DNA of 48,917 bases from an uncultured Candidatus Saccharibacteria bacterium. GTDB taxonomy: Bacteria; Patescibacteriota; Dojkabacteria; SC72. The stretch is from NCBI GenBank assembly GCA_964655705.1, contig CAZZPP010000001.1, positions 9,207 through 58,123 on the forward strand, given 5' to 3'. Shown here one piece after another: positions 39,057-48,639 of this stretch (its first letter is position 1; the number at the start of each line of letters is the position of its first letter). The position numbers and the translations under genes were made by a program. Below the pieces are notes generated by a model that was not told the DNA's origin, did not search any database, and saw only the letters and a list, made by a program, of their open reading frames with translations.

Positions 39057-39094
39057 TTGATATTGTTCCTACTACTTAGTATTATGGATAAATG
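39057..39094 (+). promoter_or_regulatory. Promoter for the 39092-47403 cluster (leaderless-type)
   Basis: TTGATA-17-TATTAT, 6 nt, ATG. Confidence 0.62.
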
Positions 39095-40696
39095 AATTTA
39101 ACTCCACATCAGAAGAGACAGTTGAGGTTTGTAATAGTACTTGTTATTGGTATACCTTTAACAGTATTTGCCCTTTACAAAGGGGTCCAACTTTTAATAA
39201 ATGCAAGTGGAGATGCTACACCTCAAGAGGTTGTGGTATCAAATCTTACTACTAGTTCTTTGACTGTAAGTTGGGTAACCGAGAAGGCTGTTGATGGTTA
39301 TGTTATTCCTGTCTTAAATGGTACAGAACAAAATCCCGTATTAGACAAGAGAGGCAGTGGAAAGAGAGAATCTCACTATGTAGTATTGAAGAGTTTAGAG
39401 CCTTCTTCAGAGTACTCCTTTATACTGGTTTCAGATAATGAGAAATATACACAGGGTAGTAGTGGTACTTACAAGTTTACTACTGCTCCCATAGGGGAGG
39501 ATACTCCTGTTCCTAACCCAGTGTATGGTACTGTAACTGGTTCAAATGCACAGGAATCCATTATATATGTAATGTTTAAAGACAAAAGTGTATACCCAGT
39601 ATCTACTGATGTACCTGAGAATGGTAATTGGATTGTAGAACTTTCATCTTTTAGGAGTATATCTGATATGGGTTTAATTAGAACAACAGATAGTACACAG
39701 TTAATAGTAATTGCAAGAAATGGTTTGAATCAAGCTGGTGTAATAGAGGGTAGCTATTCTGAACTTTTTAACAAAAGTGGTCAATTAAATAGTGATTTGG
39801 TATTAGCAGATGTGGCAGTTAACGAAATTACTTCGTATTTCCCTAACCAAACATTACTAGGGAATGCATCAGTAACACCTGATCCTGTACCACAGCCGGA
39901 ACCACAAGCAAAACCAACTCCTAAACCAGTTCCGTCTGTACCAATCTCTACTAAATATATTGTTAGACAGGATGTTCCTTGGGAGGATTTAAGTAATGCT
40001 AGGGTTGGGACCCTAGATCTTACTACTGGTGAAGATAGTGTAGTCATTGTTAACTTAACAGATACCAACTTCGTAGTTGCATGGAGGTCAAGAGAAAAAG
40101 AACAAGGATATATTAAATATGGGCTATCTAAAGAGGTGTTAGATAGTGAAATGAAAGATTCAAGAGATTCTCTAACAGTTAAGGGCGATTATTATTCCCA
40201 CTATATTGAAAGTGGAAGACTAAAACCAGATACAACATATTACTTTGAAATATATTCTGGTGATAGTAAATATGATAATAATGGGAGTAAGTATACCATT
40301 ACTACGTACTCAACACTCTCCTCTGCTCCACCTCTTGATACTCGTGGTGGTACCTTAATTAATTCCTCTGATCCTTCTGATTGGGTCTTGGTATTTCAAC
40401 TAATTGATAATGATGGTGTTGGTACATCTGATTCTTCTGGATATATTGCTACAATACCAGATTTGGATGGGTCTTGGATACTAGTTGTCGGTGATGCTAG
40501 GAGTTCTGATGGTTCATCATACTTCACCTTCTCTCAAGATGATATCTTACAAGCCTCTTTCTTAGGAGCTCAGGGAAACACCTTTGATTTTAATCTAGGA
40601 CAGAATGATATACAATTAGATGTTAGTAAATTAGGTGGTGGAGTAAGAACAAGAGTTGATTTACTCACAGATTATGGAATAGTTGATTTACAATAG
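39092..40696 (+). CDS. Membrane-anchored protein with two tandem FN3-like plus beta-sandwich modules
   Basis: Repeated V.V.NLT...V.W..SHY....L.P...Y.F.I.S...KY and G.W.....RS motifs; Pro-rich linker. Confidence 0.78.
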   Translation: MNLTPHQKRQLRFVIVLVIGIPLTVFALYKGVQLLINASGDATPQEVVVSNLTTSSLTVSWVTEKAVDGYVIPVLNGTEQNPVLDKRGSGKRESHYVVLKSLEPSSEYSFILVSDNEKYTQGSSGTYKFTTAPIGEDTPVPNPVYGTVTGSNAQESIIYVMFKDKSVYPVSTDVPENGNWIVELSSFRSISDMGLIRTTDSTQLIVIARNGLNQAGVIEGSYSELFNKSGQLNSDLVLADVAVNEITSYFPNQTLLGNASVTPDPVPQPEPQAKPTPKPVPSVPISTKYIVRQDVPWEDLSNARVGTLDLTTGEDSVVIVNLTDTNFVVAWRSREKEQGYIKYGLSKEVLDSEMKDSRDSLTVKGDYYSHYIESGRLKPDTTYYFEIYSGDSKYDNNGSKYTITTYSTLSSAPPLDTRGGTLINSSDPSDWVLVFQLIDNDGVGTSDSSGYIATIPDLDGSWILVVGDARSSDGSSYFTFSQDDILQASFLGAQGNTFDFNLGQNDIQLDVSKLGGGVRTRVDLLTDYGIVDLQ

Positions 40697-40704
40697 GGTA
40701 ATCT

Positions 40705-42066
40705 ATGAAAGATGTTTTTGAGAAATTAAAACCAATATTACTATTATTGTCCATGTCATTGGTTTCTTTTGGTATTGTATGGGTAGTGAATCAGTTTAAG
40801 TATAGCAACAAGCCTGTTGTAGTAAGTGCACCTGTTTTACAATCCCCACCCGAACAACAAGAAGAGAGTATGCCTCTAATGGAGGATACGTCAGAACTTT
40901 TAGAGGTACCCCAAGAAAACGAGTACGATGAATATGTTCTCTCAGAGTTAGATGAGTCTGAGGTTAAGGGTGCTGCTCAGTGTAAAAACATTGAGACCTT
41001 TACAGACATTAAATCATCTTCCATATGTATTAGAGAGTTTGAGGACAAGGGGGAAGTAGATTTTGGTGATGGGGAGGCTGTTTCAGGTACATTAGTGAGG
41101 AAGGAAGCTCAAGTAGAGTTAACTAAAGTTACTGTTCCTTTAGAACTGTACTCAGGGGTAGAGGTCGCAGACTCCAACAGATTAATAACTAAAGAGACTC
41201 CTACACTTAAACCAGCTGGTGAACAGGTGGACGATCTTTCTGGGAATGTTCAGATGCCTCCTAATGTACAGGTTGGTACAAAATTAACTTGGGATGAAGA
41301 GAAACCTTTTAAATCTAGTTATGGAGTTGGTTTTGCAAGTGCACCTGATACTTTTACAGAAAGTGGGGATGTTGGAGTTGAAACAGAATTGGGTAATCAG
41401 TGTGATGATGATATGTATAACAATGTTTCAAATGTTAACCCAAGTAGGTCAAATGCCATATTTAAGTTTCTGAATAATACATATTACAGATTTCCTAATG
41501 AAGTATTGGATATAACTGAAGAGACTGCTGCAGAGGAGTGTTCTGATTCTGATACTTTCATAGTTTGGGATAAGAGGGAATATATTGCATGTAGGGCTAG
41601 TTTAGTTACTCAGACGGTTGAGTTTTTCAAGGATATTGTACTCTGGTGGGAGGAATTTGATAACAAGAGGTATTGTGAAGCAAATCCTGATGAGTGTATG
41701 GATACTGAAGACATTATCGTGATGATGACCTCAACTTTTGGATCAGATACAGAATGTACAGATGAGGAAGGGAGTGCATGTACTAATGCATATATGAATA
41801 CTAGAAACAGGGTAGTACTTCCACCAAATGCAGATATGGGTGGTAAACAGTATTTTCTTACTCCATGCAAAGCTAAAGTTAAGGGAGCTCGTGGAGAACA
41901 GGATGTCCAGTGTGCTTGGGATATGTCACATCTGTTTAAAGAGAGAAAAGTAAATGAATATGACGATACACCTAATACTGAGTTTACTCCTTCTGAGGAG
42001 GAATATGAGGAGTTCCTTAAAGAAGAGGTACAGGGTACTAGGGGTACTGAAAGATTAATACAGTAA
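40705..42066 (+). CDS. Membrane-anchored acidic Cys-rich hypothetical protein
   Basis: N-terminal TM, SEVKGA motif, about a dozen Cys mostly in the C-terminal half. Confidence 0.75.
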   Translation: MKDVFEKLKPILLLLSMSLVSFGIVWVVNQFKYSNKPVVVSAPVLQSPPEQQEESMPLMEDTSELLEVPQENEYDEYVLSELDESEVKGAAQCKNIETFTDIKSSSICIREFEDKGEVDFGDGEAVSGTLVRKEAQVELTKVTVPLELYSGVEVADSNRLITKETPTLKPAGEQVDDLSGNVQMPPNVQVGTKLTWDEEKPFKSSYGVGFASAPDTFTESGDVGVETELGNQCDDDMYNNVSNVNPSRSNAIFKFLNNTYYRFPNEVLDITEETAAEECSDSDTFIVWDKREYIACRASLVTQTVEFFKDIVLWWEEFDNKRYCEANPDECMDTEDIIVMMTSTFGSDTECTDEEGSACTNAYMNTRNRVVLPPNADMGGKQYFLTPCKAKVKGARGEQDVQCAWDMSHLFKERKVNEYDDTPNTEFTPSEEEYEEFLKEEVQGTRGTERLIQ

Positions 42067-47403: not shown

Positions 47404-47445
47404 CAGTGATGAATGATTCTCTCTTTTTATCTTCCCACCTGTTTG

Positions 47446-47463
47446 TGTTAAAATAACCCTATG
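47446..47463 (+). promoter_or_regulatory. Extended -10 promoter upstream of amidase-like gene (leaderless-type)
   Basis: TG-T-TAAAAT, 6 nt, ATG. Confidence 0.6.
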
Positions 47464-48639
47464 AAACATTTTAAATATATACTCTCAATATTAATCCTCC
47501 TTTCCTCCGCTTCTTTCTCTTTGTATGCTACTGAAATCCTCCAAAGGGAAGAATTTGGGATGGATGAGACTCTGTCAACTCAGTCTGAGATATATTCATT
47601 ACCACAAAAGATATATATCACCCAATTAGATGGTTTTAATCATAACCTCTATGACAATCCACAGGAGTGGATTAAACTTCTCTACTATTACAGTGTAACA
47701 AGGTTAGGATTAAAGGATATCCCATTTAATTACTTAATTGACAGGAGTGGAAATATATATGAGGGAGCAAAGGGTGGTGATGGAGTGAACCCAGGATTAC
47801 AAGGAGGAGAGAATGTAGTATTAATTGGGATTATGGATGACAATACGAGTATATCTCCTAGGGCATCTTCTGCCTTAGTTTCATTAGTTGAGACCCTCTC
47901 TTACAGACATGGTATTCAGAGTGATAGCTGGGAACTAGTTAATCTCAAATTAAAAAGGAACGAAAATGCCGTATCATATCTTACATATACCAAATCAGAG
48001 TCAGTATTACTTAATTCAATTACTAATACATTGAGTGAAGTCCAGTGGTCTGATATTGAACATATGGACTACAAGGGTAGTATTGTATCTGTTGAATATG
48101 AGAAAGAGGTTGAGATAGGGAATAGGTTAAATGTTAAAGTAAAAATTAAAAACGAGAATGATTTTACTTGGTTAGGTGACTTAACATATATATATATTTC
48201 TACTTTAGACTCCGCTGAAAGTCCTCATGCAATTAATGGGGAGTGGGAAAGTTTTAGTAAGCCTACATATATAAAGGGTATGTATATTAAATCTGGTGAA
48301 ACAGGAGAGATTGAATTCCAACTAGAAGCTAAGAGTAAACCGGGTGATTACAAAGAGAGTTTCTACTTTATGAAATCTGCTGAAAATATTGTAGAAGGTA
48401 GTACATTTGATCTTGAATTTTCCATTGTTAAAGGAAACAACAACTTGATTGAGATTGTATCTCCACAATTTGGTTTCGCAAATATCAGAGATTGTAGATG
48501 GTACAGTTGCAAGGTACTTGAAGTTGCTAACGAGGGCCAGGTATATATTACTACTGGGAAAGAAGAGGGTTGGTATATTGTCAAATTCGGGGAAGAGAAG
48601 ATAGGTTGGGTATATCAAAAATATGCAAAAGAGATTTAA
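47461..48639 (+). CDS. Secreted Amidase_2/PGRP-like protein with Ig-like and SH3-like domains, probably catalytically degenerate
   Basis: Signal peptide; DIPFNYLIDRSGNIYEG; V.V..KN...FTW Ig-like domain; N.R....GWY.VKF....GWV SH3-like end. Confidence 0.75.
   Translation: MKHFKYILSILILLSSASFSLYATEILQREEFGMDETLSTQSEIYSLPQKIYITQLDGFNHNLYDNPQEWIKLLYYYSVTRLGLKDIPFNYLIDRSGNIYEGAKGGDGVNPGLQGGENVVLIGIMDDNTSISPRASSALVSLVETLSYRHGIQSDSWELVNLKLKRNENAVSYLTYTKSESVLLNSITNTLSEVQWSDIEHMDYKGSIVSVEYEKEVEIGNRLNVKVKIKNENDFTWLGDLTYIYISTLDSAESPHAINGEWESFSKPTYIKGMYIKSGETGEIEFQLEAKSKPGDYKESFYFMKSAENIVEGSTFDLEFSIVKGNNNLIEIVSPQFGFANIRDCRWYSCKVLEVANEGQVYITTGKEEGWYIVKFGEEKIGWVYQKYAKEI

What the first reader, a model, noticed from the sequence alone, without database searches (positions are those of the whole stretch)
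39092..48639. Candidate host-wall-breaching secretion apparatus: second half of a split, relaxase-free T4SS-like system
A tightly packed plus-strand run encodes a duplicated FN3 surface protein, a Cys-rich anchored protein, a VirB6-like channel protein, an 1126-aa membrane protein with two peptidoglycan hydrolase domains and a small bitopic protein. A secreted amidase-fold/SH3 protein follows under its own promoter. VirB6 and a wall hydrolase are the parts missing from the PrgI/VirB4 locus about 26 kb away. Together the loci form a Gram-positive-type T4SS core with adhesin-like and wall-binding extras and no DNA-processing genes in view. For a probable episymbiont, the simplest hypothesis is a contact-dependent machine that attaches to, locally digests and crosses a host wall. 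This is the best candidate for a poorly described system in the window.
Basis: partly seen in the sequence, partly recalled or inferred. Interest (0 to 1): 0.85.

Follow-up and report, generated by a model that had tools for sequence, protein, structure and literature searches.

The report
Split type IV secretion system, Dojkabacteria
This seven-gene operon is the membrane-channel and cell-wall part of the chromosomal, relaxase-free type IV secretion system already known from ultra-small (CPR/Patescibacteria) bacteria. Here, in a Dojkabacteria genome, it sits 26 kb from its ATPase genes and carries some unusual accessory wall-binding proteins.

Summary
Window 38759-48639 (one gene more than the finder listed) is a tight plus-strand operon whose products are all membrane-anchored or secreted:
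- a DUF948-like anchor;
- a duplicated FN3 protein;
- a disulfide-rich protein with no relative by sequence or fold;
- a polytopic VirB6-like protein;
- an 1126-aa protein with a Cys-free N-terminal domain, a TM region, an M23-like peptidase and a CHAP domain;
- a small bitopic protein;
- a secreted PGRP-fold/Ig/SH3b protein that lacks conserved zinc ligands, so it probably binds wall rather than cutting it.

PrgI, TrsD and a CD1110-type VirB4 lie at 9637-13488. The organism is Candidatus Dojkabacteria.

Both loci are syntenic across the class, and no locus holds genes of both within 10 kb, so the split is ancestral.

The VirB6 call rests on several lines. The best PDB fold matches are R388 TrwI. 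A weak profile match aligns the invariant GP...W motif. Four of five homologs from contigs without the Dojkabacteria synteny follow T4SS pilin arrays, and one of them has PrgI and TraC-like genes 8 kb away.

The essential Southlakia T4SS cluster has analogous parts, so this is a class-specific variant of a known system. No relaxase or coupling protein is in view. Host-wall breaching remains conjecture.

The parts
38694..38723 (+). Best sigma-70-like promoter match (TTGACA-18-CATAAT, 11 of 12) upstream of the first operon gene
   Evidence: The number of such sites in the region is not above the shuffled expectation, so this is only a lead.
38759..39052 (+). 97-aa protein with an N-terminal TM segment and a coiled-coil part (weak DUF948 match). 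Probable first gene of the operon, not included by the finder.
   Evidence: Pfam DUF948 4.2e-6, below the cut-off. TM at residues 1-31. A homolog is present in 65 of 85 related loci, directly upstream of the FN3 gene in every locus tabulated with both.
39092..40696 (+). 534-aa N-terminally anchored surface protein. It has two [FN3 + beta-rich] units joined by a Pro-rich linker.
   Evidence: Pfam fn3 and Pur_ac_phosph_N, two stretches. Internal repeat E 7e-8. TM at 9-36. Found in 72 of 85 loci.
40705..42066 (+). 453-aa N-terminally anchored protein. An acidic disordered linker (about residues 35-127) precedes a disulfide-rich globular ectodomain with no detectable relative.
   Evidence: No Pfam, NCBIfam or PDB sequence hit. 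Ten conserved Cys. AF2 mean pLDDT 73.6 and pTM 0.70. No Foldseek match in PDB or BFVD; best E 1.2 and 2.2.
42097..43581 (+). 494-aa polytopic VirB6-like membrane protein, the candidate translocon subunit
   Evidence: Topology. The top six Foldseek PDB hits are all TrwI/VirB6 (E 0.014-0.9). hhalign against ten VirB6 sequences gives E 0.002 and aligns GP365...W383 with G180-P181...W199. The family has 3362 representative clusters. Distant homologs follow T4SS pilin arrays and lie near PrgI/TraC-like genes.
43593..46973 (+). 1126-aa protein. Residues 1 to about 630 form a Cys-free, helical, probably cytoplasmic domain. TM region 632-705 (nt 45486-45707). Cys-rich M23-like metallopeptidase about 740-900 (nt 45810-46292). 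CHAP 1006-1095 (nt 46608-46877).
   Evidence: All 12 Cys lie after residue 725. M23 is found in 10 of 31 orthologs. CHAP is found in only 3 of 31, so it is a lineage-specific addition.
46996..47403 (+). 135-aa bitopic protein (N-terminal TM plus an acidic domain of about 100 aa). It occupies the slot after the hydrolase, where pCF10 has PrgL. It is lineage-specific.
   Evidence: TM at 1-33. Homologs in only 2 of 85 loci. Other genomes carry an unrelated 322-325-aa bitopic protein at this position.
47461..48639 (+). 392-aa secreted protein: PGRP/Amidase_2-fold domain without conserved zinc ligands, an Ig-like middle domain and a C-terminal SH3b domain. Probably a peptidoglycan-binding protein.
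   Evidence: No invariant His or Cys in the N-terminal domain of 29 orthologs.
12658..13488 (-). PrgI/VirB3-like protein, 276 aa, 2 TM segments (locus A)
   Evidence: PF12666, 31.0 bits against a cut-off of 27. TM segments. Syntenic in 66 of 80 loci.
12017..12658 (-). TrsD/TraC-like protein, 213 aa, related to the N-terminal part of VirB4 (locus A)
   Evidence: NCBIfam TrsD 9.6e-8, below the curated cut-off. 38% identical to the TraC-like (PF26593) gene of L087.
9637..12012 (-). VirB4 ATPase, CD1110 (monoderm) type, 791 aa (locus A)
   Evidence: NF045971 1.4e-120, 403.8 bits against a cut-off of 325. P-loop_TraG 2.7e-24.

Best explanation
Locus B (38759-48639) is the envelope module of the chromosomal, relaxase-free, monoderm-type (MPF_FATA-like) T4SS that is near-universal in Patescibacteria. 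In the class Dojkabacteria this module is separated from the PrgI-TrsD-VirB4 module.

Proposed working, with each step marked shown or inferred:
- VirB4 with TrsD and PrgI (locus A) forms the energising base. Presence and family are shown; assembly is inferred.
- The 494-aa VirB6-like protein forms the membrane translocon (inferred from fold, motif and gene context).
- The 1126-aa protein is anchored next to the translocon. Its Cys-free N-terminal domain faces the cytoplasm. Its M23-like and CHAP domains lie outside, where they cut peptide stems and cross-links to open a local gap in peptidoglycan for the apparatus. The domains and topology logic are shown. The target is inferred to be the cell's own wall first, as for PrgK, TraG and CwlT, and possibly the host wall too.
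- The anchored double-FN3 protein, the disulfide-rich protein and the secreted PGRP-fold/SH3b protein bind wall or host surface. They would scaffold or extend the conduit through the wall (inferred).
- The substrate is unknown. With no relaxase or coupling protein in view, it is more likely protein or another macromolecule exchanged with a host cell than conjugative DNA.
For: - Domain and topology calls.
- Organism and class-wide synteny of both loci.
- VirB6-likeness: the top six PDB fold matches are all TrwI, and the seventh is Legionella DotA-IcmX, with chain identity checked. The profile-profile match aligns the invariant GP...W motif with identical spacing. Two of 42 distant members hit Pfam TrbL weakly.
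- Gene context of distant homologs: L087, L088, L092 and L094 lie directly downstream of PF18895 T4SS-pilin arrays. L087 also has PrgI and TraC-like genes 8.4 kb away that are 38-39% identical to the window's. In the L087 cluster it is the only protein with a VirB6-like multi-TM bundle.
- The pairing of the VirB6-like gene with an M23-like gene recurs in a distant lineage (L086).
- The essential Southlakia T4SS cluster holds analogous parts. These are Ig/FN3-like exported proteins, a 1113-aa protein with a C-terminal LAS-type peptidase, a lysozyme plus cysteine-peptidase protein, VirB4, PrgI and a VirB6-like protein.
- The literature states that VirB1-like hydrolases of Patescibacteria are often not next to virB4, and that VirB6 is highly divergent.
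Against: - The window protein has no Pfam or NCBIfam hit to TrbL/VirB6.
- hhalign against PrgH or TrwI alone is not significant. Against a 10-sequence VirB6 profile it gives only 14% probability.
- The AF2 model is mediocre (pLDDT 65) and TM-scores to TrwI are at most 0.39.
- No locus-B gene lies within 10 kb of virB4 in 80 VirB4 loci, and no VirB4, TrsD or PrgI gene lies in 85 locus-B loci. So within this class there is no adjacency evidence, and physical interaction is untested.
- One distant homolog lies among type IV pilus genes rather than T4SS genes.
- No VirB2-like pilin, VirB8-like protein or coupling protein was identified in the window.
- There are no expression or functional data for Dojkabacteria.
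Confidence: 0.7

Rival explanations
1. Locus B is an independent cell-envelope operon for wall remodelling, daughter-cell separation or surface adhesion. It does not work with VirB4, and the polytopic protein is a scaffold or transporter that only resembles VirB6.
For: The two loci are never adjacent in Dojkabacteria. No sequence-threshold match to VirB6. M23, CHAP, PGRP-fold and SH3b domains are common in ordinary autolysins. One distant homolog lies among type IV pilus and division genes.
Against: Fold matches are specific to T4SS channel proteins. The GP...W motif aligns. Four of five homologs from contigs without the Dojkabacteria synteny sit in T4SS pilin/PrgI clusters. The Southlakia T4SS cluster has the same kinds of parts.
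Confidence: 0.2
2. The hydrolases and wall-binding proteins act mainly on the host cell wall. The apparatus would be a contact-dependent breaching machine, as the finder proposed.
For: The episymbiotic lifestyle of cultivated Patescibacteria and the essentiality of their T4SS. Tubular structures at the parasite-host interface have been reported in a preprint. The hydrolase C-terminus and the following gene vary between lineages (CHAP in 3 of 31), as expected for host adaptation.
Against: There is no evidence on substrate specificity. The hydrolase is membrane-anchored in the producer, which limits its reach. Homologous roles in monoderm T4SSs concern the donor wall (established knowledge of PrgK, TraG and CwlT; summarised). 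The secreted PGRP-fold protein lacks catalytic ligands.
Confidence: 0.25
3. The two loci are remnants of, or belong to, an ordinary conjugative element (ICE or plasmid).
For: The VirB4 is of the CD1110 conjugative type. A UvrD/PcrA-like helicase gene starts right after the operon.
Against: No relaxase, coupling protein, integrase or repeat boundary is in the 49 kb. Both loci sit in housekeeping synteny conserved across a whole class. There is no similarity to any plasmid record. The helicase is at the same place in all genomes and looks like a housekeeping gene.
Confidence: 0.03

Closest known systems
T4SS cluster of Candidatus Southlakia epibionticum ML1 (Saccharimonadia), SEML1_0004-0019 (Wang et al. 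2023, PMC10633639)
   Same: It is chromosomal, recF-proximal and monoderm-type, with no recognisable relaxase or coupling protein. It contains VirB4, a TrsD-like protein, PrgI and a VirB6-like polytopic protein. It also contains exported Ig/FN3-like proteins, a protein of about 1100 aa ending in a LAS-type (M15/M23-like) metallopeptidase, and a cysteine-peptidase domain.
   Different: Southlakia has one contiguous cluster with an essential VirB2-like pilin array, lysozyme domains and an NTF2-like protein. The window has two loci 26 kb apart, and Dojkabacteria carry a third paralogous locus elsewhere. The window has no pilin or lysozyme domain in view. M23 and CHAP are fused on one anchored protein. 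It also has a disulfide-rich protein without relatives and a PGRP-fold/SH3b protein.
Patescibacteria-clade T4SS as surveyed by Quinonero-Coronel et al. 2025 (PMC12102498)
   Same: VirB4 with adjacent TrsD and PrgI, no relaxase, and a chromosomal site among housekeeping genes. VirB1-like hydrolases are often far from virB4, some with M23 domains. VirB6 is highly divergent. Dojkabacteria are listed among the T4SS-bearing groups.
   Different: That survey looked within 20 genes of virB4, so a module 26 kb away would be outside its window. The locus-B gene set and its class-wide synteny are not described there, as far as the held text shows.
Enterococcus faecalis pCF10 Prg/Pcf T4SS (prgH-prgI-prgJ-prgK-prgL) and related pIP501 TraG
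   Same: The same functional set: VirB6-like PrgH, VirB3-like PrgI, CD1110-type VirB4, and a membrane-anchored multidomain peptidoglycan hydrolase with CHAP followed by a small bitopic protein. Surface adhesins lie upstream.
   Different: pCF10 is a conjugative plasmid with a coupling protein and a relaxase. No detectable sequence similarity of PrgH or PrgK to the window proteins. The PrgK record is annotated as a phage tail tip lysozyme; from the literature PrgK carries lytic transglycosylase and LytM-like domains and only a short cytoplasmic part. The window protein has a 630-aa N-terminal domain.
TrwI/VirB6 of plasmid R388 (PDB 7o3v, 8rtd)
   Same: Best structural match of the 494-aa protein. 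Both have a polytopic helical bundle and share the invariant GP...(17 residues)...W motif.
   Different: It belongs to a diderm MPF_T system. E-values are only 0.014 (fold) and 0.002 (profile), with TM-scores of at most 0.39. The window protein has an extra N-terminal ectodomain of about 130 aa and a Gly/Ala-rich loop.

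Membership tests
TrbL/VirB6 (PF04610) | Significant sequence or profile match to the family | tested here: inconclusive
   No Pfam or NCBIfam hit for the window protein. Two of 42 distant family members hit PF04610 at E about 0.005. hhalign against TrwI or PrgH alone is not significant. 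Against 10 VirB6 sequences it gives E 0.002 and probability 14%.
TrbL/VirB6 (PF04610) | Polytopic inner-membrane protein (at least 5 TM) with an extracytoplasmic N-terminal part and the conserved GP...W segment | tested here: met
   Hydropathy segments at 178-254, 303-376, 382-410 and 434-457 after a signal-like N-terminus. Invariant P365 and W383 align with invariant P181 and W199 of TrwI relatives at equal spacing.
TrbL/VirB6 (PF04610) | Fold similar to a solved VirB6 | tested here: inconclusive
   The top six Foldseek hits are TrwI chains (E 0.014-0.9, probability up to 1.00). TM-scores are at most 0.39 and model pLDDT is 65.
TrbL/VirB6 (PF04610) | Encoded with other T4SS genes | tested here: met
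   Not adjacent in this genome (26 kb away). Four of five homologs from contigs without the Dojkabacteria synteny follow T4SS pilin arrays, and one of them has PrgI and TraC-like genes within 10 kb.
Monoderm (MPF_FATA-type) T4SS | VirB4 of the CD1110/monoderm type | tested here: met
   NF045971, 403.8 bits against a cut-off of 325.
Monoderm (MPF_FATA-type) T4SS | PrgI/VirB3-like protein next to virB4 | tested here: met
   PF12666, 31.0 bits against a cut-off of 27. The gene lies two genes upstream of virB4.
Monoderm (MPF_FATA-type) T4SS | Membrane-anchored multidomain peptidoglycan hydrolase (VirB1 role) | tested here: met
   CHAP is above the cut-off. M23-like is supported through orthologs and motifs. 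The TM region precedes both domains. No lytic transglycosylase or lysozyme domain was found.
Monoderm (MPF_FATA-type) T4SS | VirB8-like (NTF2-fold) bitopic protein | not tested
   The 135-aa bitopic protein sits in the PrgL position. The 453-aa protein was modelled and is not VirB8- or VirB5-like.
Conjugative T4SS (ICE or plasmid) | Relaxase and VirD4/TcpA coupling protein linked to the system | tested here: not met
   None among the window's proteins in Pfam or NCBIfam scans. The rest of the genome was not seen.
Patescibacteria-clade chromosomal T4SS | virB4 with adjacent TrsD and PrgI, in conserved chromosomal context, in a CPR genome | tested here: met
   The placement of VirB4 in the published tree was not recomputed.
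Patescibacteria-clade chromosomal T4SS | VirB2-like pilin genes (often arrays) | tested here: not met
   No PF18895 or PF04956 hit among the window proteins scanned. Such genes may lie elsewhere in the genome.
Peptidase M23 | H...D, H and HxH zinc/catalytic motifs and a profile match | tested here: met
   Ten of 31 orthologs reach PF01551 (best 2e-9). The window copy keeps H772...D780, H838 and H875-L-H877. PDB profile hits to M23 enzymes are weak (E 0.036-0.6).
CHAP | Profile match with catalytic Cys and His | tested here: met
   PF05257, 35.9 bits against a cut-off of 26. C1009 lies in YWCTW and H1077 in AHVGIV.
Amidase_2 / PGRP (active N-acetylmuramoyl-L-alanine amidase) | Fold match plus the zinc ligands His, His and Cys/Asp | tested here: not met
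   The fold-level match holds (15 of 29 orthologs, PGRP hits at 2.6e-4). No His or Cys is invariant or nearly so in the domain. The protein is therefore filed as PGRP-like binding, not as an amidase.

The most novel reading that the evidence does not exclude
The Dojkabacteria apparatus is a multi-locus, relaxase-free conduit specialised for the host interface. The membrane-anchored M23/CHAP protein, the double-FN3 stalk, the PGRP-fold/SH3b protein and the relative-less disulfide-rich ectodomain would act on or recognise the host envelope. The channel would move host macromolecules, for example RNA or nucleotides as proposed in a 2026 preprint for another lineage, rather than exporting DNA. The large unannotated protein family found here (3362 clusters at 50% identity) would then be the 'missing' VirB6 of many Patescibacteria.
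Probability: 0.2. Interest if true: 0.75.

Novelty: new variant of a known kind. Interest (0 to 1): 0.45.

Why it matters
The T4SS is one of the few machines shown to be essential for the epibiotic life of Patescibacteria, and its substrate and architecture are unknown. Three points make this locus useful.

- In a whole class the channel and wall module has been separated from the ATPase module and still kept intact. That defines a conserved minimal gene set, and it warns that surveys limited to the virB4 neighbourhood miss half of the system.
- The VirB6-like family found here is large and has no Pfam annotation on any of the homologs listed. It gives a handle on a component reported as scarce or absent in several classes.
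- The conserved accessory proteins are concrete candidates for the parts that touch the wall or the host. They are the double-FN3 protein, the disulfide-rich protein without relatives, and the non-catalytic PGRP-fold/SH3b protein.

None of this changes the known picture of what the system is.

Tried and rejected
- Sequence searches of the 494-aa protein and its family profile against the PDB gave nothing.
- A search of the 494-aa protein against 72,556 plasmids gave only chance hits.
- hhalign of the family against single PrgH or TrwI sequences, and against the 1181-aa neighbour in L087, was not significant.
- BLASTP of the 1126-aa protein against PrgK gave nothing.
- A second homolog search with a profile of distant members returned mostly the same Dojkabacteria proteins and no Pfam labels.
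- Cluster look-ups gave almost no taxon names for distant homologs.
- The 453-aa protein was tested as a VirB5/VirB8 candidate and rejected. A confident model has no fold match in the PDB or among viral structures.
- The 1126-aa protein's N-terminal domain gave only coiled-coil noise in the PDB. There was no significant match to the 1154-aa protein next to PrgI in L087.
- The 325-aa gene that follows the hydrolase in other genomes (tested in L003) matches neither the window's CHAP region nor its 135-aa protein.
- Rfam found nothing in the window. Repeat search found no element boundaries. There are no tRNA genes.
- The variable insert between recF and prgI in some relatives holds unrelated genes, not T4SS parts.
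- The pnp gene near the operon was considered as a functional link to the RNA-feeding idea. It was set aside because nusA-infB-rpsO-pnp is an ordinary housekeeping cluster.

Full report
**What is there.** The window is a chromosomal segment of about 35% G+C. It is full of housekeeping genes, including folD, glyA, thyX, lepA, rpsT, alaS, nusA, infB, rpsO and pnp, together with sortases and a LytR-type gene. Homologs of the proteins in the finding carry the names Candidatus Dojkabacteria or candidate division WS6, a class of the CPR/Patescibacteria.

From 38759 to 48639 seven plus-strand genes follow each other with gaps of 8-57 bp. The finder's list begins at 39092. The 97-aa gene at 38759-39052 belongs with it. 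It has a homolog in 65 of 85 related loci, directly upstream of the FN3 gene in every locus tabulated with both. The best promoter-like site of the region (TTGACA-18-CATAAT, 38694-38723) lies in front of it. The scan does not support a separate promoter for the last gene. The 57-bp gap holds only a possible extended -10. The window ends inside a UvrD/PcrA-like helicase gene that follows the operon in the relatives whose gene tables were read.

**The proteins.** All seven are membrane-anchored or secreted.
1. The 97-aa protein has an N-terminal TM segment and a weak DUF948 match.
2. The 534-aa protein has an N-terminal anchor and two FN3 domains. Each is followed by a beta-rich segment, and the two halves align with each other (E 7e-8).
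3. The 453-aa protein has an N-terminal anchor, an acidic disordered linker and a globular part with ten conserved cysteines. It has no Pfam, NCBIfam or PDB sequence relative. An AlphaFold model with pTM 0.70 finds nothing in the PDB or among viral structures. It is therefore not a recognisable VirB5 or VirB8.
4. The 494-aa protein is polytopic (discussed below).
5. The 1126-aa protein has no cysteine in its first 725 residues, a TM region at 632-705, and then a Cys-rich part. CHAP is above the Pfam cut-off, with C1009 and H1077 present. The region before it aligns over residues 1-901 with a 913-aa ortholog that carries Peptidase_M23. Ten of 31 orthologs reach that Pfam model, and the window copy keeps H772...D780, H838 and H875-L-H877. 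CHAP occurs in only 3 of 31 orthologs, so it is a lineage-specific addition.
6. The 135-aa bitopic protein has homologs in only two of 85 loci. The relatives whose gene tables were read have an unrelated 322-325-aa bitopic protein there.
7. The 392-aa secreted protein has SH3b in 29 of 29 orthologs, Amidase_2 in 15 of 29, and profile hits to PGRPs. No His or Cys is conserved in that domain. Active Amidase_2 enzymes need His, His and Cys/Asp as zinc ligands (established knowledge). I therefore read it as a peptidoglycan-binding module, not an amidase.

**The other locus.** On the minus strand at 9637-13488 lie three genes:
- a VirB4 of the CD1110 monoderm type (403.8 bits against a cut-off of 325);
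- a 213-aa TrsD/TraC-like protein;
- a PrgI/VirB3-like protein.

recF lies next to them. No relaxase, coupling protein, integrase, tRNA gene or repeat boundary is in the 49 kb.

**Is the 494-aa protein VirB6-like?** By curated sequence thresholds it is not. There is no Pfam or NCBIfam hit, and comparisons with PrgH or TrwI alone are not significant. Four other lines agree with the call.
- Topology fits: a signal-like N-terminus, an ectodomain of about 130 aa and at least 5 TM segments.
- The AlphaFold model is mediocre (pLDDT 65). Even so, its six best PDB matches are all TrwI/VirB6 chains of R388 (E 0.014-0.9), and the seventh is the DotA-IcmX channel of Legionella. TM-scores are low, at most 0.39. 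I confirmed the chain identity with the R388 trwI gene.
- I built a profile of ten MPF_T VirB6 proteins. It aligns with the family profile at E 0.002 and only 14% probability. The alignment places the family's invariant P365 and W383 on the invariant P181 and W199 of the VirB6 set, with the same 18-residue spacing.
- Gene context is the strongest line. The family is large: 3362 clusters at 50% identity with E up to 0.001. Five distant members (about 24% identical) came from contigs without the Dojkabacteria synteny; their taxa could not be named. Four of them lie directly downstream of arrays of PF18895 T4SS pilin genes (L087, L088, L092, L094). L087 also has PrgI and TraC-like genes 8.4 kb away that are 38-39% identical to the window's. 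In the L087 cluster it is the only protein with a VirB6-like multi-TM bundle. The fifth (L086) lies among type IV pilus genes and is followed by an M23-like protein.

Two of 42 distant members also touch Pfam TrbL weakly. I conclude that it works as the VirB6 of this system with fair confidence. Formal family membership remains inconclusive.

**Is the split real and conserved?** Yes. I scanned 185,579 species genomes with the family's motifs and kept 80 loci. In essentially all loci with enough flank the order is pnp, rsmB, rsmE, small anchor, FN3, Cys-rich, VirB6-like, hydrolase, variable gene, PGRP/SH3b. This holds down to 32% identity of the VirB6-like protein. No VirB4, TrsD or PrgI gene lies in any of these 85 loci.

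The converse holds too. In 80 metagenome loci found with VirB4, the order holA...rpsT...lepA-recF-prgI-trsD-virB4 and a convergent AAA+ gene are conserved, and no locus-B gene lies within 10 kb. The separation is therefore ancestral to the class and not an assembly artefact. It also means that adjacency gives no evidence for a link within this class. The link rests on other lineages and on the literature.

**Comparison with what is known.** Wang et al. 2023 showed by Tn-seq that an apparent T4SS (SEML1_0006-0019) is essential for epibiotic growth of Southlakia epibionticum. They noted its Gram-positive-like composition, its pilins, and the lack of coupling and relaxase proteins. Their tables list the following, nearly all essential:
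- next to recF, two exported beta-sandwich proteins (one Ig/FN3-like);
- a protein with two lysozyme domains and a cysteine-peptidase domain;
- a 1113-aa protein whose last 155 residues are a Hedgehog/DD-peptidase (LAS) fold, with M15 and M23 proteins as best matches;
- VirB4, a TrsD-like protein and PrgI;
- a 998-aa protein, an NTF2-like protein, a 1088-aa TrbL/VirB6-like protein and pilins.

Locus B is thus the Dojkabacteria counterpart of the non-ATPase half of that cluster. Quinonero-Coronel et al. 2025 found a monophyletic, MPF_FATA-nested VirB4 clade in 2407 of 3035 Patescibacteria assemblies. They also found TrsD and PrgI next to it, few relaxases, VirB1-like hydrolases (some with M23) usually not near virB4, and scarce, divergent VirB6. 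Their preprint names Dojkabacteria among the T4SS-bearing groups. They searched within 20 genes of virB4, which would miss a module 26 kb away. pCF10 shows the same functional order in a true conjugative system (prgH, prgI, prgJ, prgK, prgL), but there is no detectable sequence similarity.

**Most likely mechanism.** Shown:
- the families and topologies above;
- the class-wide conservation;
- the association of the VirB6-like family with T4SS genes in other, unnamed lineages.

Inferred:
- VirB4, TrsD and PrgI form the energising base.
- The 494-aa protein forms the translocon.
- The 1126-aa protein sits beside it, with its Cys-free N-terminal domain in the cytoplasm. That placement needs an odd number of membrane passes in the 632-705 region, which hydropathy does not settle. 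Its M23-like and CHAP domains are outside, where they open peptidoglycan locally.
- The FN3, Cys-rich and PGRP-fold/SH3b proteins bind wall or partner surface and scaffold the passage.

By analogy with PrgK, TraG and CwlT, the first target is the producer's own wall. Action on a host wall cannot be excluded and cannot be tested here. The substrate is unknown. With no relaxase or coupling protein in view, conjugation is unlikely.

**Verdict.** The system is a class-specific variant of a kind that has already been described and shown to be essential. Three elements are new: the conserved split organisation, a large unannotated VirB6-like family, and a set of conserved accessory proteins that includes one with no relatives by sequence or fold. 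Interest is moderate.

Noticed in passing
L089:7349-14709 and L093:7479-14501 (Dojkabacteria contigs, not in the window): There is a third locus next to dnaA-rpmH-rnpA-yidC-jag. It holds two tandem paralogs of the VirB6-like protein (593-636 aa and 845-878 aa). A 660-684-aa single-TM protein follows. Its N-terminus shares the S[IV]FDFIF motif with the N-terminus of the window's 1126-aa protein (hhalign E 0.0013, BLASTP E 0.004). The system may be spread over three loci.
   Followed up: partly
window 8308-9459 (+): An AAA+ ATPase with a Lon-type lid domain lies convergent to virB4. It has a homolog in 73 of 80 VirB4 loci, next to virB4 in all but a few of the loci tabulated. It is not a VirD4-type coupling protein by Pfam, and whether it relates to the T4SS is unknown.
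   Followed up: partly
L086:9605-14693: A distant homolog of the VirB6-like protein (699 aa) lies among type IV pilus genes (pilD, pilC, pilB/T, pilM) and division genes. It is followed by a protein with an M23-like region similar to residues 744-895 of the window's hydrolase.
   Followed up: partly
window 4809-6404 (+): The ThyX gene encodes 531 aa with two separate Thy1 matches. That is about twice the usual length, which suggests a tandem-fused ThyX.
   Followed up: no
window 22-2668 (+) and 26217-30313 (-): There are two sortase genes (1988-2668 and 29498-30313). Each lies near a large surface protein: DUF11 at 22-2022, and Big_7/Ig-like at 26217-28154 with a C-terminal TM segment. This indicates a Gram-positive-like wall with covalently anchored proteins.
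   Followed up: no
window 16495-20470: A block of small or Cys-rich envelope proteins has no family assignment. It comprises a 184-aa single-TM protein, a 182-aa protein with 3 TM segments, a 132-aa protein, a 131-aa anchored single-FN3 protein, and a 578-aa protein with 10 Cys and a C-terminal TM segment. The block lies between lepA and holA and is syntenic in most VirB4 loci.
   Followed up: partly
window 48759-48917 (+): A UvrD/PcrA-like helicase gene starts here and is cut by the window end. It follows the operon in the related loci whose gene tables were read (L001-L005). It is probably a housekeeping gene.
   Followed up: partly
L087:6385-9930, L088:6419-9955, L092:6000-9563, L094:6502-9981: In the clusters with pilin arrays, a secreted protein of about 1180 aa always lies between the pilins and the VirB6-like gene. 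The L087 copy has 24 Cys and no Pfam match. It may be a counterpart of the surface proteins of locus B.
   Followed up: partly
window 34794-38673: The operon lies just downstream of rpsO-pnp, with rsmB and rsmE between them on the other strand. A 2026 preprint links PNPase and the T4SS to feeding on host RNA in another lineage. Here the proximity is most simply the ordinary nusA-infB-rpsO-pnp cluster.
   Followed up: partly
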